A DNA stretch of 64,000 nucleotides from a virus. The notes below the pieces were generated by a model. The model saw only the letters and a list, made by a program, of their open reading frames with translations. It searched no databases and had not been told where the DNA came from. Made by a program: the position numbers and the translations under genes. This document shows positions 2,451 to 59,107 of this stretch, one piece after another. Where the stretch lies: positions 97,055-161,054 of IMG/VR virus record IMGVR_UViG_3300034104_005002. The stretch is one strand, 5' to 3'. Each line of letters opens with the position of its first letter. The stretch's first letter is position 1.

Positions 2451-2897
2451 TCAGATAATTTCGCTCACGATCTCATCACCGCCAAGCGTACATGGCTCGC
2501 CATCGATATAATCAACCGGCTGAAATGATGGGCATACGCTCCATGTTTCCGTCTCAATAAAGTGGTTCAGAGCAAATTGGGCAAACAATTTTGCGCCACT
2601 GTTTTTATAAAACTGCCCCATGCAATAATGCAACTTATTGGTATCAATCCGGTTAGGATAAACCATAACAACCTCACAGAAAAGCAAGCCCTGTTGCCTA
2701 CCCTCACCGATGCGGAATGATACCTCAAACTTGTATCCACCAACAGCGTAGAAGTGTACACAATCGGTGTAGATTCCACCGATGTCATCATCAGCAGGCG
2801 GCCACGTAGAGTAGGCTTCCCAGTTGAGAGTGTAACGGTTGAGAGTGGCGGTTGTCATCGGATCGGCTCCGGTTGTTTGACCCTTTAATAATCCCAC
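2451..2897 (-). CDS. hypothetical early protein (start probably at MTTATL)
   Basis: ORF track; promoter upstream. Confidence 0.6.
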   Translation of the reverse strand: MGLLKGQTTGADPMTTATLNRYTLNWEAYSTWPPADDDIGGIYTDCVHFYAVGGYKFEVSFRIGEGRQQGLLFCEVVMVYPNRIDTNKLHYCMGQFYKNSGAKLFAQFALNHFIETETWSVCPSFQPVDYIDGEPCTLGGDEIVSEII

Positions 2898-2915
2898 GTT
2901 TCGGCTCGCCGTTCT

Positions 2916-3014
2916 GTATCAACCGCTACCGTTTCCATGATTCGACTGATAAGATACGCTGATGGCCGTTTGGTATCACCCGATACAGTGGCCTGGCCTG
3001 ATCTGTCCTAGTAT
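2916..3014. promoter_or_regulatory. divergent NtcA-type promoters
   Basis: GTA-N8-TAC at 2916-2929 and 2973-2986; the second is followed by exactly N22-TAGTAT (3009-3014), the canonical NtcA class II layout. Confidence 0.65.
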
Positions 3015-3019
3015 TGTTT

Positions 3020-3140
3020 CAACAAAATAAAAAGAGCGGGGGCGCCGCAATGATATAAAACAAGACACTTAATCTGCCATAAAATAATAAAGTATAAAGA
3101 ACAAATAAAGACCCCAGAGTATAAAGAACTCTAGGGCCAC
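3020..3140 (+). repeat. dispersed non-coding element copy 1 (putative sRNA)
   Basis: GCGG-loop-CCGC + AATGATATAAAACAAGACACTTAATCTGC + downstream hairpin. Confidence 0.7.
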
Positions 3141-3154
3141 TGATTGTTATTAAC

Positions 3155-3556
3155 TCATGCGGGCAAACTATAAGCAATCATCTCATTTGTGCCCTTGGGC
3201 TGTAAACGAATCACCCCATCTTTGACAGTTCGATTACATTTAACATTGGTAAGTTGAGTCAGTTCCCGCACTTTACGGGCAATACTCTGGTGGTTTTTAG
3301 TAGTCGTAGTGAACGAATATCCCCACACGGGCTGTAGTCCGGCTGGGGTAATCTCGGCCACGTCTATTTTAATGCGGAACATTTCACCTTTGGCAATGAG
3401 AACATTCTCATAATACTCGGTAAATTGTAGCCGCTCGCTGCCATCCTTGCGGGTTCCAATATAACCAGCAGAGCGAACAATGATAGCATTGCTGACACCA
3501 GCAGCACGGCAGGCCTCACGGTGGGCCAGGAGAGCGGTTCCGGTGAGTTTGATCAT
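3155..3556 (-). CDS. protein with cyanobacterial AbrB (cyAbrB)-like N-terminal domain
   Basis: LTGTALLA...RSAGYI...ERLQFTEYYENVLIAKG resembles the cyAbrB N-terminus (LTGxxLL...CGY...TxFYxAxLxAKG); C-terminus unrelated. Confidence 0.6.
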   Translation of the reverse strand: MIKLTGTALLAHREACRAAGVSNAIIVRSAGYIGTRKDGSERLQFTEYYENVLIAKGEMFRIKIDVAEITPAGLQPVWGYSFTTTTKNHQSIARKVRELTQLTNVKCNRTVKDGVIRLQPKGTNEMIAYSLPA

Positions 3557-3667
3557 GGGTTGTTCCCTTGACTGCTCCCATAGTGTAGCAGCTCTAGAGG
3601 CTAGTGGCGAGGTTTTAACGATTAGCGGTGCTTATGGGTCTGATAAAATATGTTTATGAATAAAACC

Positions 3668-3696
3668 TTGACTTTATGGGTCACTGCTGCTATACT
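3668..3696 (+). promoter_or_regulatory. sigma70-type promoter driving repeat copy 2
   Basis: TTGACT-N17-TATACT. Confidence 0.7.
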
Positions 3697-3699
3697 ATA

Positions 3700-3815
3700 A
3701 ACAACAAAAGAAAACAAAACGCAAAAGCGTGATAATATAAAACGGGACACTTATCCTGCACTTTTTTATTATTATAAAAAACAAAAAAAAACCTGGAAGT
3801 ATAAAACCTCCAGGT
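3700..3815 (+). repeat. dispersed non-coding element copy 2
   Basis: ACGC-AAAA-GCGT + GATAATATAAAACGGGACACTTATCCTGCA + ACCTGGA...TCCAGGT hairpin. Confidence 0.75.
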
Positions 3816-3827
3816 GGTTGATTATAA

Positions 3828-4145
3828 TCAGCAGGTTGGATGTTTCTTATTCTCCCACCGATCATAATGCGCGTCGATTACTTCCTGCAACGGTTCGTAA
3901 TCAGTATAATCGGCGGCGATTACACCGGGTTCATTACCCAGAACCAGGAAGATTGCCACCTTTTTATTGTTATGTTGAAGCCGCAATGTGGATTCGTCTG
4001 TAGCCACAGTTTCCTCCAAGAACTCAGTCTTGGATACATCCGAATATCGAATATTTTCCTCTCCATTGTTTACACTCAAAGGTGTAAATCCGGCCCGTTT
4101 GAGGGACTTAAGCAGGGAGCGGACTTCAGGGTGGTAGTCGTTCAT
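3828..4145 (-). CDS. hypothetical early protein
   Basis: ORF track. Confidence 0.65.
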   Translation of the reverse strand: MNDYHPEVRSLLKSLKRAGFTPLSVNNGEENIRYSDVSKTEFLEETVATDESTLRLQHNNKKVAIFLVLGNEPGVIAADYTDYEPLQEVIDAHYDRWENKKHPTC

Positions 4146-4235
4146 GGGGTGAATCCCTTTGACCCTTTAAGTATTGCAGACCCAGGCCGATCCGTCAAGA
4201 CCCCAAACGATCAGAAATGCTTATGGGTCCAGGGC

Positions 4236-4264
4236 TTGACAATACTGGAAAAGTGTTTTATACT
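4236..4264 (+). promoter_or_regulatory. sigma70-type promoter driving repeat copy 3
   Basis: TTGACA-N17-TATACT. Confidence 0.75.
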
Positions 4265-4267
4265 ATA

Positions 4268-4392
4268 AACAACAAAAGAAAACAAGCGGAGGACCGCAAT
4301 AACATAAAACGAGACACTTATCCTTCTTTTTTATACTATTTTTTATACTAAACAAAAGTGACCCGTAAGTATAAAGAACTCGCGGGTCACTG
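4268..4392 (+). repeat. dispersed non-coding element copy 3
   Basis: GCGG-AGGA-CCGC + AATAACATAAAACGAGACACTTATCCT + GTGACCCG...CGGGTCAC hairpin. Confidence 0.75.
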
Positions 4393-4874
4393 TTTTTTAT
4401 ACTACTTCAGTTAGTATAATTTCCTTTGCGTACCAAAGTTGAACCAATGCATCATCCAATTCTTTAATCTTAGAATCAAAAGTAGCATCTTTAGTGATAG
4501 ACGCGCACCGGATCAATTCTCTACGGCGATCAAGTAAAGCCATGCGAATACAATAACCGCTAAGTGTGACAGACATAACTATAAAGAATGAAGGAAAGTT
4601 GGTAAATTAACTAGATCAAGGTGAGAAATTCTTTTTCGTCATATCCCCCAGAATCCATAGCGTCTTCCAGTTCTGTAACTAGCCCGTCAAAATCTTCACT
4701 AGGGGCAAGATGTTGGTCAGAACATCAACTAGGCTACCATATTCTTCGCGCAAATTATCAAGATACTCCCCACGATTAGCAAAACCGTTGTTCTGATAGG
4801 GGCAAGACATGAGAGGCGTTCCCTTGGTTGACTAGTCAACTGTAACCCATAAAAACCAGACGATCACCGTACCT

Positions 4875-4898
4875 TGTGCCACTTAAACAACTGGCACA
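4875..4898. promoter_or_regulatory. palindromic early-promoter element (example of about 30 copies)
   Basis: TGTGCCACTTAAACAACTGGCACA; recurs upstream of most minus-strand cassettes, about 30 nt before a -10 box. Confidence 0.75.
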
Positions 4899-4908
4899 AT
4901 TAAAATAA

Positions 4909-5292
4909 TTATCCTTGGAAGTTAGGAACACTAAAACCAAACTCAAACTTGAAAACTATAATGTTAAGAACATCGAAAATCTCTCTTAGTTTTTCCTTGG
5001 CCAATGGGTGCTCTAAAGCATATTTTTCACAAGGATAAAGATCATCTTCGTCTAGCTCTAAAAGATCCTCATTAACATCTGGAATCTCGTCAGACTCATG
5101 GAAACTCAGATCATATTTCTCATTACAAAAGAATATCTTACCCATACCTACCACAAAAGTTAGATCATTCTCTTTACAGAATGGAACAACAGTTGATTCA
5201 AAGTATTGTTCTGCAATTGCATCAATTTCCTTATAAGCCCTATTTTCAATCTCCTCAAGTTGTTTGGCTATTTTGTCAGAGATAGTGGCCAT
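4909..5292 (-). CDS. hypothetical acidic protein
   Basis: ORF track; palindrome promoter upstream. Confidence 0.65.
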   Translation of the reverse strand: MATISDKIAKQLEEIENRAYKEIDAIAEQYFESTVVPFCKENDLTFVVGMGKIFFCNEKYDLSFHESDEIPDVNEDLLELDEDDLYPCEKYALEHPLAKEKLREIFDVLNIIVFKFEFGFSVPNFQG

Positions 5293-5417
5293 TGGAGAAT
5301 TGTCTGGTTGACTGGATTAGTATAAGGGAGATAATGGGTTGGTGGTCAGGGCCTTGTGACACTTATGGAACTGGCACACCATCAGTCACGATTAAGGTTT
5401 TTATGGATTATACTATA

Positions 5418-5532
5418 AACAACAAAAGAAAACAAGCGGAGGACCGCAATAACATAAAACGAGACACTTATCCTGCACTTTTTTATTATTATAAAAAACA
5501 ACAAAAAAGAGTCAGAATTAACTAACTCTTTT
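5418..5532 (+). repeat. dispersed non-coding element copy 4
   Basis: about 65 nt identical to copy 3; TATACT at 5409-5414. Confidence 0.75.
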
Positions 5533-5542
5533 ATACGAATTA

Positions 5543-5794
5543 TCAATAATTCAATACCTCATTAGCATTATCTTCGGCCTCTTCAGTTGTAACAAATGGG
5601 CCAAAAAACTCAGAATTAGGAATACAACCAGGAGAACAAACTGCCCAATAGTAACCTGGTTCATACAAATTATCACCAGAAGTTTCACGCAATCCTTCGG
5701 CTTCATTATGTTGATCACAATCGGATTGTGAAAACCAAGTGATCCAAACCGGGGTGGACCCTTCGTTATCAGTGTGTTGGATGGTGGTTTGCAT
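5543..5794 (-). CDS. hypothetical protein
   Basis: ORF track; palindrome promoter upstream. Confidence 0.6.
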   Translation of the reverse strand: MQTTIQHTDNEGSTPVWITWFSQSDCDQHNEAEGLRETSGDNLYEPGYYWAVCSPGCIPNSEFFGPFVTTEEAEDNANEVLNY

Positions 5795-23608: not shown

Positions 23609-23707
23609 AATGAATAAAAGTTTGTTGGTGAATTCAGGGCTTTCCCCCTGATGAACCTATTATGCCAAGGGAAAGGGGGGCATGGAAGCCCCCAGTGGCC
23701 AGTTTGT

Positions 23708-24040
23708 TTATCGGCCCATCGCAGACCGAATCTTCATTTCAATCCGTTCATCGAGTTTGGCCAGGATATAGTTCTCAAGCTGAGAATCCAGACTATTTTT
23801 GATGTCAGTTGAAACCATTTCAGTCATTGCCGGAATCTGATAGCGTTTTAGATAATTAGTCATTCTCTTTGAGAATGGGTCAGACTTAAAGTATTCCTCG
23901 ACTGCATTATTCATCGAGGTTGTATCTGGTTTGGCGGTCTGAATTTCTTCATAAAGATAACGAAGAGCATTCAACAGATTAGAAAATTCGACCAGTTGAT
24001 CGTTCACGTTCACTAGAGCCGGGACAGTGGTTGTTTCCAT
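23708..24040 (-). CDS. helical hypothetical protein directly downstream of the E1 gene
   Basis: ORF track; 6 nt from the E1 stop. Confidence 0.6.
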   Translation of the reverse strand: METTTVPALVNVNDQLVEFSNLLNALRYLYEEIQTAKPDTTSMNNAVEEYFKSDPFSKRMTNYLKRYQIPAMTEMVSTDIKNSLDSQLENYILAKLDERIEMKIRSAMGR

Positions 24041-24046
24041 AATAAA

Positions 24047-24760
24047 TCAAGAAATAGAGGTGGACAGAGTGCGGCCATTAAAAAACATTCCGCTTTGTTG
24101 AGGATTAAGCACCCCATCAAGGAAGTTTTGAATCACCGAGAGAGTAATCGCGGCAGCAAAGAAATTTGCCGAGATCAATTGAGGCCTAGAAGGTGTACTC
24201 AGAGCACAGGATCCCTTTTCTGGGATGCTGTCAATAGGGTTACTGATGTTGGGATAAGCAATACTAGGATCCATTCCAACACGTTCACCATTACATTTAC
24301 CAAACCAAAGAGTCTGGCCCTGTACTGATTCCGTGCCGTCACTATTACCTGGGGTAATAAAGAAAAAATCTTTATCAGAACAGGTAGTAGAGATTGCCTT
24401 TAGAACATCATGTCGAGTTGCATCATTGTCAACAGAACAAACAATCAGAGGAGACTCTGCTCGCTCCAGAAGAGGAATGAAAGAAGTCATTGAAATAAAA
24501 TCTTCCTTGCAGTCAACATTTTCTAGACCTTGAAAGGCACAGAAGTCTACCATTGCGCGGGCCTTGTTCATGCCAATTTGTGATGGGCCTACAATTTGAC
24601 GAGTTTGGTTGTGCTCTTCAAATTCATCACCATCAATAAAAACTACTTTGGCGTTTTCTGTGGCCGGATGGTGCGCAACAAGACGGGCAATAGGTGATGC
24701 AAGATAGCCGCCAGTGCCACCTACTCCTACAATAAAAACGGTGTCAGGATTGAAATTCAT
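24047..24760 (-). CDS. ThiF/E1-like ubiquitin-activating enzyme (PRTRC-type)
   Basis: IVGVGGTGG, IDGDEFEEHNQTRQ, GMNKA, CSVDNDATR, GSC putative catalytic Cys, QLISANFFAA. Confidence 0.9.
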   Translation of the reverse strand: MNFNPDTVFIVGVGGTGGYLASPIARLVAHHPATENAKVVFIDGDEFEEHNQTRQIVGPSQIGMNKARAMVDFCAFQGLENVDCKEDFISMTSFIPLLERAESPLIVCSVDNDATRHDVLKAISTTCSDKDFFFITPGNSDGTESVQGQTLWFGKCNGERVGMDPSIAYPNISNPIDSIPEKGSCALSTPSRPQLISANFFAAAITLSVIQNFLDGVLNPQQSGMFFNGRTLSTSIS

Positions 24761-24829
24761 GATTTAAGGTGAACTACTTTGCAAGTATAAAGGAGAAATG
24801 GGAGTGAGAAGCGAGGAGATGGACAGTTT

Positions 24830-25870
24830 TCAGGCTGTCACAAAGGATTCATCTAGCTGGCCAATTAGGTATCCTTCAGAAGAAATATACCATTTGCGGC
24901 CCACCGCATCTTCTTGAGTAGTGTAACCAAAATAGACCGAATCTTCTTTTTGAATTGTAGAAGTTTTTGCTGGAATGATCATTACATGCGGAGCTTCTGG
25001 AATTGGAGTAAATCCGGCCATCAACATCGTAAAGAATGCCTGAACGTCCTGATCTGCATCAATCATAATCAGACAATCATAACCAGAACACAAGAATTTA
25101 TGATCCGATTTATGGTAATTACCACATTCTATAGAATCTTTTAGGGCATTGATATTTTCTGTAAATCTAGCGAGCCTAAGAAGATCATTATTGAAATTTG
25201 ACTGAAAGTAGGAACTAACAATTCCCCGAAGATTCGCCGGAGAACTCACTTGCCCCCAACAGATTTTTCCATATATGTATCCAGTTTCATCTCTCTGGTC
25301 TGAACTGTAAACATTTGCCGCAGCAAATGAAGATGTCTGATAAATTACACCCTCTTCATAATAACCGGCCCGGAGGTGGGCATTATCTCCTTGGTAAACT
25401 TTTTTAAAACGAGGTGGGGTTCCTTTATAATTCAGTTTAATATCAAAGACCATATTGGAAATGGAGATTTTCTTTTCCTCTTTGGGTTTAGATTCATGGC
25501 CTTCCATACAGTGTTGGCCTGTATAACCATCCCACCATACGTCACATTCTGTTTGATTTTCCCTGGCATTCCTAAAGAATTCTGTTGACTCGTTTTCATC
25601 ATAGCTGCCGTCTTCTGCAAACACATTTGGATATGTGGTTTTCAGGTATTGAGTGGTTCGTCGCGGGCAATACTGGCAGTGATTGCTATAAAAATCTTCA
25701 TATTCGTTATAATTTGGATCAACTTCGCCAAATTCAGAATAATTTTCAGGCATCCAGGCCCTAATTGTAAGGGCCTGGGAATCTACCCGATAGGAAATAA
25801 ATTCCGCTTCAGAGGGAAGCAAGTGAGTGTTTACTTTGGCCGGATTTGTGGGAAAAATAGGATTCATCAT
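24830..25870 (-). CDS. putative prokaryotic E2 (family D-like) with N-terminal Cys/His cluster
   Basis: ANVY...GKICWG...YFQSNFNNDL matches the E2-D / PRTRC-B signature; HCQYC...C...HC upstream. Confidence 0.7.
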   Translation of the reverse strand: MMNPIFPTNPAKVNTHLLPSEAEFISYRVDSQALTIRAWMPENYSEFGEVDPNYNEYEDFYSNHCQYCPRRTTQYLKTTYPNVFAEDGSYDENESTEFFRNARENQTECDVWWDGYTGQHCMEGHESKPKEEKKISISNMVFDIKLNYKGTPPRFKKVYQGDNAHLRAGYYEEGVIYQTSSFAAANVYSSDQRDETGYIYGKICWGQVSSPANLRGIVSSYFQSNFNNDLLRLARFTENINALKDSIECGNYHKSDHKFLCSGYDCLIMIDADQDVQAFFTMLMAGFTPIPEAPHVMIIPAKTSTIQKEDSVYFGYTTQEDAVGRKWYISSEGYLIGQLDESFVTA

Positions 25871-26817
25871 ACCTCCGCAAATTGGTGATCTTCGATGTAA
25901 ACAGAAAGCAAGGCCATAAGTTCTTCAATCTCTTCTGGGTTTCCTTTGTTTTGTTTTAGGAAATCCTCGATTACGTCTTCAATTTGATGGAGTTTAATAG
26001 ACTCTTTTTCAGGTGTTTGATAGCCCTGAAATTCATCCCAAAGCTCACTAAAATCTCCATTGATATTGTCCTTAAAACCAAATGGAGACTTGTAATTGTA
26101 ACCATTCCAATTGGTTCTTTGATTGGAGGAGTATTTGGTGACTACTGGTTTAGAATAATCAACATAATCAAGAACGTCTTCATGGAAAGTAAACCCTTCA
26201 AGTGGTTCGGTTTCAATAAGATCTTTATGGGGGATCTTAAAGCGCCGACCATTTGCCACAACAGAAGAAGCAATAGCGTAAGTCCGATCTTTGGCACTAA
26301 TGGATCCAACTACAATATGAATTCCAGGATCTCCCAGTTCATACTTATCATCGGTGCCCGAAAAGAAGGCTTGCATAGTGTTGTGGCTGTGGGAAGATCC
26401 AACAGGAATCCAGCCAATCGGAGGATAACTTGTAATGACTTCTCCAGTCTCAATGTCAATAGCATCATCAAATCTATCAACCCTCACAGATGTGGCAGAT
26501 ACTTTCTGTTTGGGAACAAGAATCCGATAAAGAGAGGGATCTTCTTCGCTGCGAAGAATACGAACCGAAACTTCTACATTAGAAGGAACTTTTTCAATAA
26601 AGTGAAAACAAAGCTGCACCCACCGTTGCCACAAATCCGCCGGGATTTTGTGAATGTCTTCATTAAGAGTGAATGATTCTAGATCTTCTTTGGAAATAAT
26701 TACGTTGGCATCTGGATCATCGGTGGGGCGAATGTACGTTCCCCAACCACCAGTATAAAGTTCAAAACATCCATGCTTGGCGGTTCGTAGAATCTTTGGG
26801 ATTTCTTGTGTTTCCAT
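25867..26817 (-). CDS. JAB/MPN metallo-isopeptidase (prokaryotic JAB)
   Basis: E...VPKQKVS...GSSHSHNTMQAFFSGTDD...IHIVVG (HxH-x7-S-x2-D). Confidence 0.88.
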   Translation of the reverse strand: METQEIPKILRTAKHGCFELYTGGWGTYIRPTDDPDANVIISKEDLESFTLNEDIHKIPADLWQRWVQLCFHFIEKVPSNVEVSVRILRSEEDPSLYRILVPKQKVSATSVRVDRFDDAIDIETGEVITSYPPIGWIPVGSSHSHNTMQAFFSGTDDKYELGDPGIHIVVGSISAKDRTYAIASSVVANGRRFKIPHKDLIETEPLEGFTFHEDVLDYVDYSKPVVTKYSSNQRTNWNGYNYKSPFGFKDNINGDFSELWDEFQGYQTPEKESIKLHQIEDVIEDFLKQNKGNPEEIEELMALLSVYIEDHQFAEV

Positions 26818-26837
26818 AATAAAGAGAAGAAGTTTAC

Positions 26838-26866
26838 AAAAAAGGCCCTTGTTTCAGGGCCTTTGT
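26838..26866 (-). terminator. intrinsic terminator between Ubl and JAB genes
   Basis: AAAGGCCCTGAAACAAGGGCCTTTTT on the minus strand. Confidence 0.65.
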
Positions 26867-27182
26867 GGTTTTTGGACTGTATCAGCCGATAGATTTTTGC
26901 TAACTTGCGTTAACAATGCACAAGTAATTACTTACTTGAGGGGCTATCTCCCAAAGCCTCAAGAATTCTTGAGACGCTGTTGTTTTTGTGTTTTAAGTAC
27001 CAACTAGCTTCCAGAGGGCTCAACTAGCCTGGATTTTGTTTATAGGATTTTTATAGTTAACTTGGCTCTCGTCAACTGTTGAATTTTACTTCAACAAATC
27101 TATTTAATAAAGTAAAAACCTATTGATTATAGGATTTTATTTGTTAGCTAATGTTTATTTTTGTTAATAAAACACTAACTGT

Positions 27183-27449
27183 TTATGAACCCTTGCTTTC
27201 GCTTGTGATAGCACCACGCACGGTTTCACCGGGCCGAGGCTGAGTGTCCGAAGGGACAGATTCGCCATTGATCACATAGGTAGTGATTCGGGCCACATCT
27301 ACACCAAGACTAGAGCCATATTCAGCAAAGAGTTGTGAAACAGACTTGCCGCGAGCATTTTCAAAAGGAACTTGCACGCTTTCGGTGTTCACGGTAAGGA
27401 CAACCGGAAGGCTGGTGTCCATGGTACGAACGTTTTGGAGAAATTGCAT
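27183..27449 (-). CDS. ubiquitin-like (beta-grasp) protein
   Basis: about 80 aa, GKSVSQLF...YVING...PRPGETV pattern, C-terminus SESKG-S; lies beside JAB/E2/E1. Confidence 0.75.
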   Translation of the reverse strand: MQFLQNVRTMDTSLPVVLTVNTESVQVPFENARGKSVSQLFAEYGSSLGVDVARITTYVINGESVPSDTQPRPGETVRGAITSESKGS

Positions 27450-45154: not shown

Positions 45155-45952
45155 ATGAAATTTAATATTAAACCATCTCAAATTGACACTAGAGACTTTA
45201 TTTACCGAAACGATAGCACAGAGATCTTGCGGGAATCCGTAGATCTCCGTGAATGGGATACAATTGTCGAATCGCAAGACGATTTAGGTAGTTGCGCCGC
45301 CAATGCAATAACAAATGCCTATGAACTTTGCGTTAATCGAAATTATCCTGAACAGTTTACTCATCTAAGTAGATTATTTGTTTATTATAATACACGCCTT
45401 GAGCACGGAATAATCGAAGAAGACGAGGGAATGTTTCTTAGGGATGGCATGAAATCATTATCCAAATATGGAGTGTGTTGTGAAAAATTATGGCCTTATG
45501 ATATAGACAAATTCAACATAAAACCAAGTGAAGAGGCATATGAGGACGGTATAAAAAGAAAAATTCTTAATTACCAAAAACTTATAAGCACCTATTATAT
45601 TGCCCAGGTGATAAACAACAACAAACCAGTTGTATTTGGAATGACCATTTATGAAAGTTTTATGGATCTAAATGAGCGTATTTCTACTGTTACTTTTCCT
45701 TCTAGAAAGGAAAGAAATCTTGGAGGCCATGCTATGTGTATGGTTGGTTATGATTTAAATAAGAGACTATTTTTGGCAAAGAATAGTTTTGGGTCTGATT
45801 GGGGAGACAACGGCTATTGTTGGATTCCTTTTGATTATATTGAAAAAGAGGCATACGACATTTGGACATTTGATATCCCATCCCAAGCAGGAGAACTCAA
45901 TGTACTACCCCTACCCATACTATCCGTACCACAGGCGGAGATATTGTTATGA
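45155..45952 (+). CDS. papain-like cysteine peptidase (C1 family)
   Basis: QDDLGSCAANA, LSRLFVYY, GGHAM, KNSFGSDWGDNGY. Confidence 0.92.
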   Translation: MKFNIKPSQIDTRDFIYRNDSTEILRESVDLREWDTIVESQDDLGSCAANAITNAYELCVNRNYPEQFTHLSRLFVYYNTRLEHGIIEEDEGMFLRDGMKSLSKYGVCCEKLWPYDIDKFNIKPSEEAYEDGIKRKILNYQKLISTYYIAQVINNNKPVVFGMTIYESFMDLNERISTVTFPSRKERNLGGHAMCMVGYDLNKRLFLAKNSFGSDWGDNGYCWIPFDYIEKEAYDIWTFDIPSQAGELNVLPLPILSVPQAEILL

Positions 45953-51069: not shown

Positions 51070-51843
51070 TCATAATTCGTATTCACGTTTAAAGGCATCT
51101 TCCCCAATATTTTTAATCACTTCTTCCTTCCAATTATTGTCTAGCCTAGGAATATCTCTCCAATCATATTCAGATAATGAATATTTGTTTATACCATCCT
51201 TTGCATCTTCAACCAGCTCATTAAAATAACTACCTTCTTTTTTGGTACTTGCGATGATTATTTTGGGGGAGTTATTGCGACCAAAGAAAGAAGCCAATAA
51301 ATTCTGAGAAGTATAGTACTCCATAAACGCAAATTCATCTAAAAATGCGTGAGTATATTCCCAATTCTCCCAAGTTTCAGGGGTAGAAATATTTGTTACT
51401 ATTTTTACCCTAGAATTATTTTTAAGTATTATCCACATTGAGGTTCTTTTTACTATTCCGGGTTTAATCCAATCGGGTAACTGTTCATATGTATTATAGA
51501 ATCGTTCAAGTAAATATTTTGAATTTTGATAACTAAAACTACTAATCACAATATTGCAATTAGATTTAAAAATTGCCTGATGTAAAAGATAGAATAATGG
51601 AACCGATGATTTGCCAAATTGTCTTGGGGCCTTTATAAGATTGTATTTGTTTTTATGAATTTTTTTGACAATTTCTTCTTGGGCGGGATAAAGAAGAAAA
51701 GGCGCATTATCTTCTTTAAGCGAAGAAAATTTCACATAATTGTTAATAAAATAAATTGGGTCATTAGAACATTTAATTGATTCTGAAAAATGAAGAATTT
51801 TGTTTAATAAGTTAATCATATCAAAAGGGTTGAATGTGGTCAA
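51070..51843 (-). CDS. terminase large subunit (gp17-like) ATPase-domain-only paralog
   Basis: DPIYFINNYVK, LYPAQ, APRQFGKS, FLDEFAF, IIIAST; ends at FKREYEL with no nuclease domain. Confidence 0.8.
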   Translation of the reverse strand: MTTFNPFDMINLLNKILHFSESIKCSNDPIYFINNYVKFSSLKEDNAPFLLYPAQEEIVKKIHKNKYNLIKAPRQFGKSSVPLFYLLHQAIFKSNCNIVISSFSYQNSKYLLERFYNTYEQLPDWIKPGIVKRTSMWIILKNNSRVKIVTNISTPETWENWEYTHAFLDEFAFMEYYTSQNLLASFFGRNNSPKIIIASTKKEGSYFNELVEDAKDGINKYSLSEYDWRDIPRLDNNWKEEVIKNIGEDAFKREYEL

Positions 51844-57879: not shown

Positions 57880-58030
57880 GTAATAAAAACCAATAAAATT
57901 CTATAAAACTCTATTGATTTTCTAGACGTTTCACCGCAGATGCTAAATGATGACTAGCACCATTTAGTCTTAATTCCGCTCCACGTCCGTAATCGACATA
58001 CTCTGCCGATGTTAATTCTTGACCCGAAAG
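57880..58030 (-). ncRNA. putative TnpB omegaRNA / right end
   Basis: 13-bp GU-containing hairpin AATCAATAGAGTT/AATTTTATTGGTT at the tnpB stop; extent inferred from family knowledge. Confidence 0.45.
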
Positions 58031-59107
58031 GTCTGACCATCCTTTTTTGAGGATGTTGATAGAGGCATTTAGGTCTCTATCGTGATTAGAACCACAAGAA
58101 GGACAAGTCCATTCTCTAATGTTTAGAGGCATTTGGTCCTCTTTATGACCACAATTAGAACAAGTTTTACTTGATGGATAAAATCGGTCTATTTTAACCA
58201 GAGTTTTTCCGTACCAATTACACTTGTATTTTAACATATCCACAAAAGTAGACCAAGAGGCATCGCTAATGGATTTAGCAAGTTTGTGGTTTTTTAACAT
58301 TCCGGAAACATTTAGGTCTTCAACAACAATTAAATCAAAAGTCTTGACAAGTTGTGTTGAAACATTATGAAGAAAATATGTTCTTGAGTTGGTAATATTT
58401 TCATAAACCTTAGCAACTTTAATACGTTGTCTATTGTAACGATTACTACCTTTGGTCTTCCGACTTAAATGTTTCTGTGCTTTTTTAAGTTTAGATTGGT
58501 TCTTTCTAAACCATTTGGGATTGTTAATGACTTGCCCATTACTTAAGATGAACAAATCCTTTAAACCCAAATCAATACCTACTACTTTACCAGTTGAGGG
58601 TATTGGGTTGAGTTCTTGTTGAACTAAAATCGAAACAAAATATTTGTCAGTTGGAGTTTTAGAAACAGTAATACTTCTAAAGTCGGCTTCTTCAGGGATA
58701 GTTCGGTCTAGAACAATTTTGACCCAACCAATTTTTTCAAGTCTAACTAAAGACTTTTCTTGGTCCAAAGTAAACTTTTGATTGGGTAGTCTAAATGATT
58801 GTCTGTTAAATTTTTTCTTGAACTTTGGTCGCCCAAGTTTAGTTTTTCGTTTTTTATTGAAGTATTGTTTTTTGAATTCAATAAAATCTCTTGTTTTTTG
58901 TTGGAGGGTTGCTGCAGAAACTTCCTTAAGAAACTCAAACTCCTCTTGGTCTTTTAGTGTCTTTTCATTTACTGTAGAACCATCATTATTATTAAAATTT
59001 TCAACAAGTTTGTTCCAGACAAATCTACAACAACCAAAAGTTTTAGAAAATAAAATCTCTTGTTCTTTTGTAGGATAAATCCTATATTTGTATGCCTTTA
59101 AATGCAT
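57911..59107 (-). CDS. tnpB: RNA-guided endonuclease TnpB (IS200/IS605 family)
   Basis: KAYKYRIYPT, GIDLG, VVEDL, CSNCG...CPSCG, DRDLNAS; catalytic D/E/D present; no tnpA nearby. Confidence 0.95.
   Translation of the reverse strand: MHLKAYKYRIYPTKEQEILFSKTFGCCRFVWNKLVENFNNNDGSTVNEKTLKDQEEFEFLKEVSAATLQQKTRDFIEFKKQYFNKKRKTKLGRPKFKKKFNRQSFRLPNQKFTLDQEKSLVRLEKIGWVKIVLDRTIPEEADFRSITVSKTPTDKYFVSILVQQELNPIPSTGKVVGIDLGLKDLFILSNGQVINNPKWFRKNQSKLKKAQKHLSRKTKGSNRYNRQRIKVAKVYENITNSRTYFLHNVSTQLVKTFDLIVVEDLNVSGMLKNHKLAKSISDASWSTFVDMLKYKCNWYGKTLVKIDRFYPSSKTCSNCGHKEDQMPLNIREWTCPSCGSNHDRDLNASINILKKGWSDLSGQELTSAEYVDYGRGAELRLNGASHHLASAVKRLENQ

What the first reader, a model, noticed from the sequence alone, without database searches (positions are those of the whole stretch)
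23708..27449. Phage-encoded ubiquitin-like conjugation operon (Ubl, JAB, E2, E1)
Seen: four adjacent co-oriented early genes. They encode an ~80-aa protein ending SESKG-S, a JAB metallopeptidase (HSH-x7-S-x2-D), a protein with NVY...ICWG...FNNDL, and a ThiF/E1 (GxGGTG, DGD, NKA, SC). Known: this set and these motifs match prokaryotic Ub systems of the PRTRC / E2-family-D type, whose Ubl ends in KG, and bacterial Ubl systems (Bil, CBASS Cap2/Cap3) act in antiphage defence. Inference: a lytic cyanophage carries its own protein-tagging pathway, under phage early promoters and without the ParB partner. JAB would trim the terminal Ser to expose Gly. It could modify host proteins for takeover, counter host Ubl-based defence or attack co-infecting phages. 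The helical ORF 23708-24040 is a candidate adaptor or substrate.
Basis: partly seen in the sequence, partly recalled or inferred. Interest (0 to 1): 0.92.

Follow-up and report, generated by a model that had tools for sequence, protein, structure and literature searches.

The report
Phage ubiquitin-like tagging gene cassette
A large T4-like (probably cyanobacterial) phage carries five conserved genes that look like a complete kit for attaching a small ubiquitin-like protein to other proteins. It is a stripped-down, very divergent relative of the never-tested bacterial "PRTRC" cassette, and what it tags is unknown.

Summary
On the minus strand lie a Ubl (27183-27449), a JAB peptidase (25867-26817), a 346-aa Cys protein "X" (24830-25870), a ThiF-type E1 (24047-24760) and a 110-aa protein "S" (23708-24040). 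All quoted motifs are present and invariant in relatives.

- **Ubl:** it models as a beta-grasp. Relatives end in invariant KG followed by 0-3 variable residues.
- **X:** no library HMM hits it directly. Its profile reaches distant relatives that pass Pfam's cut-off for Prok-E2_D, over the invariant CWG cysteine. Its model resembles UBC folds only weakly (Z 3.2-3.9).
- **Synteny and selection:** the five-gene order is kept on every long enough related locus fetched, including 225-258 kb phage contigs. dN/dS is 0.07-0.18.

The parts list matches operon type 6d of Iyer et al. 2006 (PRTRC), but every PRTRC HMM test fails its cut-off and no ParB is present. I call it a new variant of a known, untested kind.

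New here: X carries a four-Cys insert that takes 14 of 15 amino-acid changes against a 99%-identical strain. In some relatives a group I intron splits the JAB motif. "Early promoters" is not supported, and "cyanophage" only indirectly. This scan has already noted PRTRC-like cassettes in phages on other DNA. The biological role is inferred only.

The parts
27183..27449 (-). Ubl: 88-aa ubiquitin-like beta-grasp protein ending ...SESKG-S
   Evidence: The AlphaFold model has pLDDT 78 and a beta-beta-alpha-beta-beta-beta order. Foldseek matches SUMO, NEDD8 and ISG15 at probability 1.00, TM 0.5-0.68. VIA Z reaches 8.9; MoaD scores 7.5 and bacterial BilA (8tyz_B) 7.1. K86 and G87 are invariant. Tails after G are 0-3 variable residues (50 of 120 have none). 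189 homologue clusters were found. No PRTRC_C HMM hit.
26880..27182 (-). About 300-nt structured non-coding insertion directly after the Gly87 codon; it creates the one-residue Ser tail
   Evidence: It is absent from the closest relatives L026 and L027, where the Ubl-JAB gap is 64-66 nt and the Ubl ends KG-stop. It folds at -101.9 kcal/mol, z = -7.0. No other copy is in the window or the loci. No Rfam match.
26835..26864 (-). Conserved terminator-like hairpin (GGCCCT-N6-AGGGCC followed by a T run) between the Ubl and JAB genes
   Evidence: Seen in the sequence and picked up by the terminator scan. The same hairpin lies at the same place in L010, L026 and L027. Its function as an attenuator is inferred.
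25867..26817 (-). JAB/JAMM metallopeptidase, 316 aa, with a conserved N-terminal domain and a variable C-terminal extension
   Evidence: Prok-JAB scores 24.1 bits (cut-off 25) and PRTRC_A 24.7 bits (cut-off 101.8). E82, H143, H145, S153 and D156 are invariant. The N-domain has invariant R11, W25, R30, W63 and W66. In relatives L010 and L007 a group I intron sits right after the HSH codons.
24830..25870 (-). X: E2-like protein, 346 aa. A UBC-like core carries invariant Cys204 (ICWG). A four-Cys insert spans residues 48-132. The C-terminal domain is SH3/Tudor-like.
   Evidence: No direct Pfam, NCBIfam, PHROG or PADLOC hit. The A1 profile finds 166 representative proteins. Distant ones P0297, P0311 and P0321 score 27.9, 27.1 and 26.6 bits on Prok-E2_D (cut-off 25), over the CWG Cys. 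Five of 90 hit PRTRC_B. hhalign of A1 against A3 gives 100%. The model has pLDDT 88. VIA matches many UBC/UEV chains at Z 3.2-3.9 over 100-126 residues, rmsd 3.5-4.6 A. Co-fold with E1 and Ubl: weak support, 0.45 against a best control of 0.00.
25475..25729 (-). Codons 48-132 of X: fast-evolving insert with invariant C65, C68, C109 and C121
   Evidence: Against L026 (99.2% nt identity over the cassette), 14 of X's 15 non-synonymous changes fall here; neither of its 2 synonymous changes does. Binomial P = 3.4e-8. Family-wide identity to the window is 27% here against 43-58% elsewhere. No second copy exists in the 161-kb record.
24047..24760 (-). E1: minimal ThiF-type adenylating enzyme, 237 aa, with invariant Cys185
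   Evidence: PF00899 ThiF scores 34.1 bits (cut-off 28.1). The best NCBIfam hit is PRTRC_ThiF at 46.4 bits (cut-off 144.75). The N-terminal Rossmann part also matches CBASS Cap2-type and BilD models. Invariant: GxGGxGG, D43, R54, K66, D111-N-D113 and C185.
23708..24040 (-). S: 110-aa fast-diverging protein of no known family, always directly after E1
   Evidence: It is syntenic in almost all loci. 75 homologue clusters exist, none with a Pfam domain. Identity falls to about 21% between subclades, yet N21, Y28, E31, E32, D85, D97 and R99 are invariant. dN/dS is 0.14. The Atlas model is poor (pLDDT 0.52) and its neighbours are uninformative.
23676..23693 (-). GC-rich hairpin just downstream of the S stop codon; possible operon end
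   Evidence: Terminator scan: six G-C pairs, but a weak T tail. Function is inferred only.

Best explanation
This is a working, phage-encoded ubiquitin-like protein conjugation cascade.

Shown: the five genes are real, conserved together and under purifying selection. The Ubl has a beta-grasp fold with an invariant C-terminal Lys-Gly. JAB, E1 and X keep every expected catalytic residue.

Inferred mechanism:
1. JAB removes the 0-3 residues after Gly87. In this phage that is one Ser, added by a recent insertion.
2. The ThiF-type E1 adenylates Gly87 and probably takes it as a thioester on Cys185.
3. The Ubl passes to Cys204 of X, a divergent family-D E2.
4. X transfers it to lysines of target proteins. 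The hypervariable four-Cys insert and the conserved SH3-like C-terminal domain would act as built-in target or partner recognition, so no separate E3 is needed.
5. JAB may also reverse the tagging.
6. The 110-aa protein S is a dedicated partner: a specificity factor, a regulator or the preferred substrate.
7. The conserved hairpin after the Ubl gene would let the tag be made in excess over the enzymes.

Most likely role: tagging host or phage proteins during infection, to favour takeover or to blunt host defence. I prefer this role weakly and give it about 0.4.
For: - **Fold and termini of the Ubl:**
- **JAMM motif and conserved N-domain:**
- **E1 family membership and invariant nucleotide-binding, Mg and Cys residues:**
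- **X linked to Prok-E2_D and PRTRC_B through its own distant relatives, over the invariant Cys:**. The model gives consistent but weak UBC-fold matches.
- **Co-fold of E1, Ubl and X:** weak support. Score 0.45 against a best control of 0.00. The runs agree in at least 71% of contacts and the partner's pLDDT is at least 83. That mark was reached by 58 of 80 solved complexes and 2 of 110 mismatched pairs, but scores of 0.60 or under are more often wrong than right without a good prior.
- **Five-gene synteny in every locus that is long enough:**
- **Purifying selection:** dN/dS 0.07-0.18.
- **Same parts list as operon type 6d of Iyer et al. 2006 (PMC1779556):** Ubl, JAB with an N-domain bearing conserved R and W, E1, an E2-like protein lacking the HPN His, and a fast-diverging helical protein.
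- **Amino-acid changes clustered in the X insert between near-identical strains:** this fits a recognition surface under diversifying selection.
- **Group I introns at the JAMM motif codons in relatives:** such introns usually sit in conserved sites of expressed genes. That generalisation is from my own knowledge; the introns themselves are.
Against: - No biochemical data exist for this family or for PRTRC in the literature I could search.
- X has no direct hit to any curated E2 model.
- Its structural match to UBC is below the level the tool calls trustworthy (Z under 4). Foldseek finds nothing.
- The HPN His is absent. The downstream conserved His described for type 6d E2s is not among the invariant residues here; N227 and D229 are conserved instead.
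- The target is unknown.
- Promoters, timing of expression and host are not established.
- The clustering of changes rests on one pair of strains. Relaxed constraint on the insert could contribute.
Confidence: 0.62

Rival explanations
1. The chemistry is the same, but the role is inter-phage competition or defence. The phage tags structural proteins of co-infecting or superinfecting phages, as the bacterial Bil system tags a tail protein. It would then be a phage-carried defence system, not a takeover tool.
For: [quoted passage not shown] The X insert shows arms-race-like change. The E1's N-terminal part weakly matches Cap2 and BilD models.
Against: Ubl, JAB, X and S hit no PADLOC defence model. 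The E1 is a single 237-aa adenylation domain, not the multidomain BilD or an E2-E1 fusion. The cassette is a stable, syntenic part of a whole clade of large phages, not a sporadic island.
Confidence: 0.15
2. It is a sulfur-carrier pathway and does not tag proteins. The beta-grasp protein is thiocarboxylated by the ThiF-like enzyme after JAB trimming, as in the CysO/Mec+ or QbsE/QbsD systems. X would then be a Cys-dependent sulfur relay or sulfurtransferase that makes a thio-modified nucleoside, cofactor or metabolite for the phage.
For: The E1 is a minimal MoeB/ThiF-sized enzyme (237 aa). The Ubl model also matches MoaD (Z 7.5) and TtuB (Z 6.6). JAB-trimmed sulfur carriers are described in Iyer et al. 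2006.
Against: X is linked to Prok-E2_D and PRTRC_B, not to sulfurtransferases. No rhodanese, cysteine desulfurase or biosynthetic partner is in the conserved set. The tail is Lys-Gly, whereas ThiS/MoaD-type carriers usually end Gly-Gly (own knowledge). The best E1 models are PRTRC, Cap2 and BilD types.
Confidence: 0.1
3. It is a non-conjugating assembly chaperone pair. The Ubl and JAB would act as lambda TAPI/TAPK do in tail assembly, and E1 and X would be unrelated neighbours or inactive relics.
For: Phage Ubl-JAB pairs without an E1 or E2 are known in lambdoid and T1-like tail modules (PMC1779556).
Against: E1 and X are always present, are under purifying selection (dN/dS 0.07 and 0.18) and keep all catalytic residues. 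The cassette lies among small non-structural ORFs, not in a tail module.
Confidence: 0.04

Closest known systems
Operon type 6d of Iyer, Burroughs & Aravind 2006 (PMC1779556), which I equate with the PRTRC cassette (NCBIfam TIGR03734-03742) of plasmids and ICEs. The equation is my inference: the best HMM matches here are to PRTRC_ThiF, PRTRC_A and, via relatives, PRTRC_B.
   Same: It has the same five parts: a small Ubl with C-terminal Gly; a JAB with an extra N-terminal domain bearing conserved Arg and Trp; a ThiF-like E1; an E2-like Cys protein without the HPN His (Pfam Prok-E2_D); and a fast-diverging small protein. Both sit on mobile DNA. Neither has been tested experimentally in the literature I could search.
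   Different: No PRTRC HMM reaches its cut-off. There is no ParB. X is 346 aa, with a hypervariable four-Cys insert and an SH3-like C-domain. It conserves N227 and D229 where type 6d E2s are described as having a conserved downstream His. The carrier is a T4-like virulent-type phage genome, not a plasmid or ICE.
E2_D-like + JAB + ThiF module of jumbo Bacillus phages vB_BauM_KLEB27-3 (OM634661: gp196, gp195, gp194), Edson (PV796108) and vB_BceM_WH1 (LC597490)
   Same: These are phage-borne sets of an E2-family-D-like protein (21.1 bits), a JAB (annotated as PRTRC_A domain) and a ThiF. The A3 profile of X's distant relatives hits gp196 weakly.
   Different: The gene order is E2-JAB-E1. I saw no Ubl gene next to them. 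E1 identity is only about 25%, and X has no tblastn match there. The host is Bacillus.
Bil (BilABCD) anti-phage Ubl conjugation system
   Same: It has Ubl, E2, JAB and E1 as separate proteins. JAB exposes the Ubl C-terminus. The Ubl model here resembles BilA (8tyz_B, Z 7.1).
   Different: [quoted passage not shown] Here the E1 is one 237-aa domain, and only its N-terminus matches a BilD model at 21.5 bits. Bil is bacterial and defensive; its E2 family differs.
Type II CBASS Cap2/Cap3 and Bub (6E) pathways
   Same: Both combine ThiF-type adenylation with E2-type transfer and a trimming peptidase.
   Different: Cap2 is an E2-E1 fusion that conjugates the CD-NTase itself. Bub uses Ser/Tyr oxyesters and a DUF6527 protease. 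Here the proteins are separate, a dedicated Ubl is present, and Cys is invariant in both E1 and X.

Membership tests
PRTRC cassette (TIGR03734-03742) | ThiF-family protein scoring above the TIGR03736 cut-off | tested here: not met
   46.4 bits against a cut-off of 144.75. It is nevertheless the best NCBIfam match.
PRTRC cassette (TIGR03734-03742) | PRTRC_A (JAB) protein above the TIGR03735 cut-off | tested here: not met
   24.7 bits against a cut-off of 101.8. The match covers only the JAMM motif region, residues 142-181.
PRTRC cassette (TIGR03734-03742) | PRTRC_B / Prok-E2_D protein | tested here: inconclusive
   X itself has no hit, even when the HMMs are run on its own genome alone. Distant relatives found by X's profile pass the Prok-E2_D cut-off at 27.9, 27.1 and 26.6 bits (cut-off 25). 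Five of 90 hit PRTRC_B at E <= 5e-4.
PRTRC cassette (TIGR03734-03742) | PRTRC_C small Ubl protein | tested here: not met
   TIGR03738 has no match in the 161-kb record at E <= 10.
PRTRC cassette (TIGR03734-03742) | ParB-related partner | tested here: not met
   There is no ParB_N (PF02195) match in the record at E <= 1. The record is estimated 68% complete, but none of the syntenic loci shows a ParB next to the cassette either.
Operon type 6d (Iyer et al. 2006) | Gene set of Ubl, JAB with an N-domain (conserved R and W), E1, E2-like protein and a fast-diverging helical protein | tested here: met
   All five parts are present and syntenic. The JAB N-domain has invariant R11, R30, W25, W63 and W66. 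S diverges fast but keeps invariant polar residues. The helical nature of S was not tested here.
Operon type 6d (Iyer et al. 2006) | E2-like protein with an absolutely conserved His downstream of the Cys | tested here: not met
   The invariant residues after C204 are W205, N227 and D229, with no invariant His. The description of the feature is from PMC1779556.
UBC/E2 superfamily | UBC fold | tested here: inconclusive
   VIA-align matches many E2/UEV chains (Pex4p, UbcH5c, UBE2G2, Ubc13, Tsg101 and others) at Z 3.2-3.9, rmsd 3.5-4.6 A, with 100-126 residues aligned over model residues 10-261. Foldseek found nothing in PDB, BFVD or the Atlas.
UBC/E2 superfamily | Invariant catalytic Cys after the beta-meander; HPN motif upstream | tested here: inconclusive
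   C204 is invariant and lies inside the Prok-E2_D match of relatives. Only the Asn-like position (N186 in A-N-V) is kept; His and Pro are absent. Structural equivalence of the residues could not be checked because no coordinates are available.
JAMM/MPN+ metallopeptidases (Pfam Prok-JAB) | E...HxH-x7-S-x2-D zinc site | tested here: met
   E82, H143, H145, S153 and D156 are invariant. The Pfam score of 24.1 is just under the cut-off of 25.
ThiF/MoeB/E1 adenylating enzymes (PF00899) | Score above the gathering cut-off; nucleotide-binding Gly loop, Arg, Lys and Asp residues | tested here: met
   34.1 bits against a cut-off of 28.1. The motifs are invariant.
Ubiquitin-like beta-grasp modifiers | Beta-grasp fold with a conserved C-terminal Gly that is exposed or exposable | tested here: met
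   fold; invariant KG with 0-3 variable tail residues.
Bil (BilABCD) | Multidomain E1 (inactive + active adenylation domains + Cys domain) | tested here: not met
   The E1 is 237 aa with a single domain. The BilD model matches only residues 3-121 at 21.5 bits. The architecture of BilD is from PMC11601596.

The most novel reading that the evidence does not exclude
A virulent T4-like phage uses its own ubiquitin-like conjugation machinery offensively. An E2 with a built-in, rapidly evolving zinc-finger recognition module tags specific host proteins, such as defence or housekeeping factors, during infection. This would be a bacterial-virus counterpart of the way eukaryotic viruses exploit ubiquitin. 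The E2 insert would be evolving in an arms race with its targets.
Probability: 0.3. Interest if true: 0.85.

Novelty: new variant of a known kind. Interest (0 to 1): 0.6.

Why it matters
Bacterial ubiquitin-like conjugation (CBASS Cap2, Bil, Bub) has so far been studied as host defence against phages. The 6d/PRTRC type, predicted in 2006, has no experimental study in the literature I could search.

A compact five-gene version fixed in a whole clade of large environmental phages suggests that phages also use this chemistry. It offers a small, soluble-looking gene set for reconstitution.

The hypervariable four-Cys insert in the E2 points to where specificity may lie. The three cultured Bacillus jumbo phages with a related module give a route to genetics.

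Tried and rejected
- **Sequence searches that found nothing.** DNA and protein searches of X against deposited phages. X's profile against PDB sequences. E1 and JAB against PDB sequences.
- **Fold and language-model searches of X that found nothing.** Foldseek in PDB and BFVD, and the Atlas search by shape, gave only noise. The language-model Atlas search gave only unnamed clusters under 0.9.
- **Direct HMM tests that found nothing.** Prok-E2_D, PRTRC_B and PRTRC_C run on the own genome gave no match.
- **Genome scans.** The scan of 185,579 prokaryote genomes with the X alignment found no relative. Scans with the distant alignments A3 and A4 could not run because they have no conserved stretch.
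- **Contexts of distant relatives.** The contigs carrying P0214, P0297 and P0311 are too short (under 3 kb) to show an operon. P0297 has no match in plasmids.
- **Protein S.** No family, no informative Atlas neighbour, and a profile search that stayed within the phage clade.
- **A DGR as the cause of the clustered changes in X.** Rejected for now, because no second copy of the region exists in the 161-kb record.
- **The 365-nt gap.** It has no Rfam family and no repeat elsewhere.
- **Defence-system membership.** Only the E1 N-terminus matches Cap2 and BilD models.

Full report
**What is there.** The window is bases 97055-161054 of a 161-kb IMG/VR virus record estimated 68% complete. Five ORFs lie head to tail on the minus strand:
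- Ubl, 27183-27449, 88 aa
- JAB, 25867-26817, 316 aa
- X, 24830-25870, 346 aa; its start overlaps the JAB stop by 4 nt
- E1, 24047-24760, 237 aa
- S, 23708-24040, 110 aa

Each is invariant across relatives.

**The Ubl.** Pfam gives only a sub-threshold Ub-Mut7C hit. A 62-sequence alignment gives an AlphaFold model with pLDDT 78 and the beta-beta-alpha-beta-beta-beta order of a beta-grasp.
- Foldseek matches SUMO, NEDD8, ISG15 and ubiquitin at probability 1.00, TM 0.5-0.68.
- VIA-align gives Z up to 8.9. Hits include MoaD (7.5), ISG15 (7.7), SAMP1 (6.9) and the bacterial BilA chain 8tyz_B (7.1).
- All 120 listed relatives contain S/A-E-x-K-G near the end. Fifty stop right after the Gly and 70 carry 1-3 unconserved residues.

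This pattern is typical of a modifier whose Gly is exposed by a peptidase.

In this phage the single Ser is a by-product of an insertion. The closest relatives L026 and L027 end KG-stop and have a 64-66 nt gap before JAB. The window has about 300 extra, strongly structured nucleotides inserted right after the Gly codon.

**JAB and E1.** JAB has the full JAMM site (E82, H143, H145, S153, D156). It also has a conserved N-terminal domain with invariant Arg and Trp residues. Its best curated matches are Prok-JAB (24.1 bits, cut-off 25) and PRTRC_A (24.7 bits, cut-off 101.8).

E1 passes the ThiF cut-off (34.1 against 28.1). Its best NCBIfam match is PRTRC_ThiF, far below that model's cut-off (46.4 against 144.75). 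Its N-terminus also matches Cap2-type and BilD models. The Gly loop, D43, R54, K66, D111/D113 and C185 are invariant. Placing C185 on a crossover loop is my inference.

**Is X an E2?** No library recognises X directly.
- It has 60 close homologues, all unnamed.
- A profile of 55 of them, run against 1.84 billion representatives, finds 166 proteins.
- Ninety distant ones (alignment A3) align to the X family over the full length (hhalign 100%). They keep the same CxxC...C...C, N-V, C-W-G and N-x-D-L residues.
- Seven of the 90 hit Pfam Prok-E2_D and five hit PRTRC_B.
- Three proteins from the distant hits pass the Pfam cut-off: P0297 at 27.9, P0311 at 27.1 and P0321 at 26.6 bits, against 25 (P0297 is not in A3). 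The matched stretch always contains the CWG cysteine.

The AlphaFold model of X is confident (pLDDT 88). Foldseek finds nothing. The exhaustive VIA search lists many UBC/UEV chains over residues 10-261, but only at Z 3.2-3.9. It also finds an SH3/Tudor-like barrel at residues 302-346. A co-fold of E1, Ubl and X gave weak support: 0.45 against a best control of 0.00.

I conclude that X is a very divergent family-D E2 with two extra modules. Homology is reasonably secure through intermediates. Structural equivalence of the active site is not shown.

**Conservation.** The order Ubl-JAB-X-E1-S is kept on every related contig long enough to show it. These include 225-258 kb contigs full of small phage-type ORFs. 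Against L027, dN/dS is 0.09, 0.11, 0.18, 0.07 and 0.14 for the five genes in that order. The X family was not found in 185,579 prokaryote genomes or in deposited phages.

**A hot spot in X.** L026 is 99.2% identical in DNA over the cassette. Against it:
- E1 has one synonymous change and S has none.
- X has 15 non-synonymous and 2 synonymous changes.
- 14 of the 15 lie in codons 48-132, the insert that carries the four invariant Cys. Binomial P = 3.4e-8.

Family-wide, this insert is 27% identical to the window against 43-58% for the rest. No template-like second copy exists in the record, so a diversity-generating retroelement is not indicated. This suggests a recognition surface under diversifying selection. 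It rests on one strain pair.

**Comparison with known systems.** Table 1, row 6d, of Iyer et al. 2006 lists a Ubl, a JAB with an N-domain bearing conserved Arg and Trp, an E1, an E2-like protein lacking the HPN His, and a rapidly diverging alpha-helical protein. The phage cassette has the same parts.

It fails every PRTRC HMM cut-off and has no ParB. It also lacks the invariant downstream His described for 6d E2s. It is not Bil, because its E1 has a single domain. It is not CBASS, because there is no E2-E1 fusion. It is not Bub, because Cys rather than Ser/Tyr is conserved.

I found no experimental paper on PRTRC. The 2021 jumbo-phage survey from Aravind's group does not mention such systems.

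Three cultured jumbo Bacillus phages carry an E2_D-like + JAB + ThiF trio, annotated only as hypothetical or 'PRTRC_A domain'. Earlier notes of this scan report PRTRC-like cassettes in phages on other DNA. I did not check those notes.

**Host and timing.** The terminase is closest to T4-like Synechococcus phages, at about 39% identity. A related contig (L016) carries a cyanobacterial-type tmRNA at 104.8 bits. No psbA is in the record. Promoter-like sites are no more frequent than in shuffled sequence. A hairpin followed by a T run between Ubl and JAB is conserved in the window, L010, L026 and L027.

**Verdict.** This is a real, conserved, probably active Ubl conjugation cassette. It is a new variant of the 6d/PRTRC kind, in a clade of large T4-like phages. 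The mechanism is inferred from residues and homology, and the role is unknown.

Noticed in passing
L010:4160-4400, L007:6761-6997, and by sequence L011 about 4175-4460: Group I introns (Rfam RF00028, 59.2 and 56.3 bits, cut-off 50) interrupt the JAB gene of related phages exactly after the His-Ser-His codons of the JAMM motif. The reading frame resumes at N-T-M-Q-A-F-F-S-G. L007's insert is longer and may hold a homing-endonuclease remnant. The window's JAB gene is uninterrupted.
   Followed up: partly
window 26880-27182 (minus strand): About 300 nt of hairpin-dense non-coding DNA (MFE -101.9 kcal/mol, z -7.0) is inserted right after the Ubl Gly87 codon. It is absent from the closest relatives, has no Rfam match and has no other copy in the window. 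It contains a promoter-like TTGACG-17-AAAAAT at 27075-27047 and could be a small RNA gene or a mobile-element remnant.
   Followed up: partly
L016:687-945: A related phage contig encodes a cyanobacterial-type permuted tmRNA (RF01851, 104.8 bits) and several tRNAs. This is a host clue for the clade.
   Followed up: no
L016:7804-7896: The last 31 codons of the E1 gene are duplicated about 1 kb downstream of E1, with extra DNA between E1 and the S gene. This suggests a mobile insertion at that junction.
   Followed up: no
L025 (Bacillus phage vB_BauM_KLEB27-3, OM634661) 2693-5741; also PV796108 and LC597490: Three cultured jumbo Bacillus phages carry an E2-family-D-like protein, a JAB (PRTRC_A-like) and a ThiF side by side. 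I saw no Ubl ORF in the gap between the JAB and ThiF genes.
   Followed up: partly
L024 (Clostridium argentinense plasmid pRSJ17_1) and other 110-225 kb non-mobilizable Clostridium, Thermoanaerobacterium and Bacillus plasmids: The nearest plasmid relatives of the E1 (24-29% identity) sit among hypothetical genes on large non-mobilizable plasmids that may be phage-plasmids. No JAB or E2 was recognised next to the one examined.
   Followed up: partly
window 57911-59107 (minus strand): A TnpB / IS605 OrfB-type protein (Cas12f1-like TNB, OrfB_IS605 and HTH domains) lies inside the phage genome.
   Followed up: no
window 51070-51843 (minus strand): Only the N-terminal ATPase part of a T4-type large terminase is encoded in this 257-aa ORF, so the gene may be split or interrupted.
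   Followed up: no
window 45155-45952 (plus strand): A papain-family (Peptidase_C1) cysteine protease gene lies on the strand opposite to most neighbours.
   Followed up: no
L007:2730-3023: A related large phage contig encodes a ClpS homologue a few kb upstream of the Ubl cassette.
   Followed up: no
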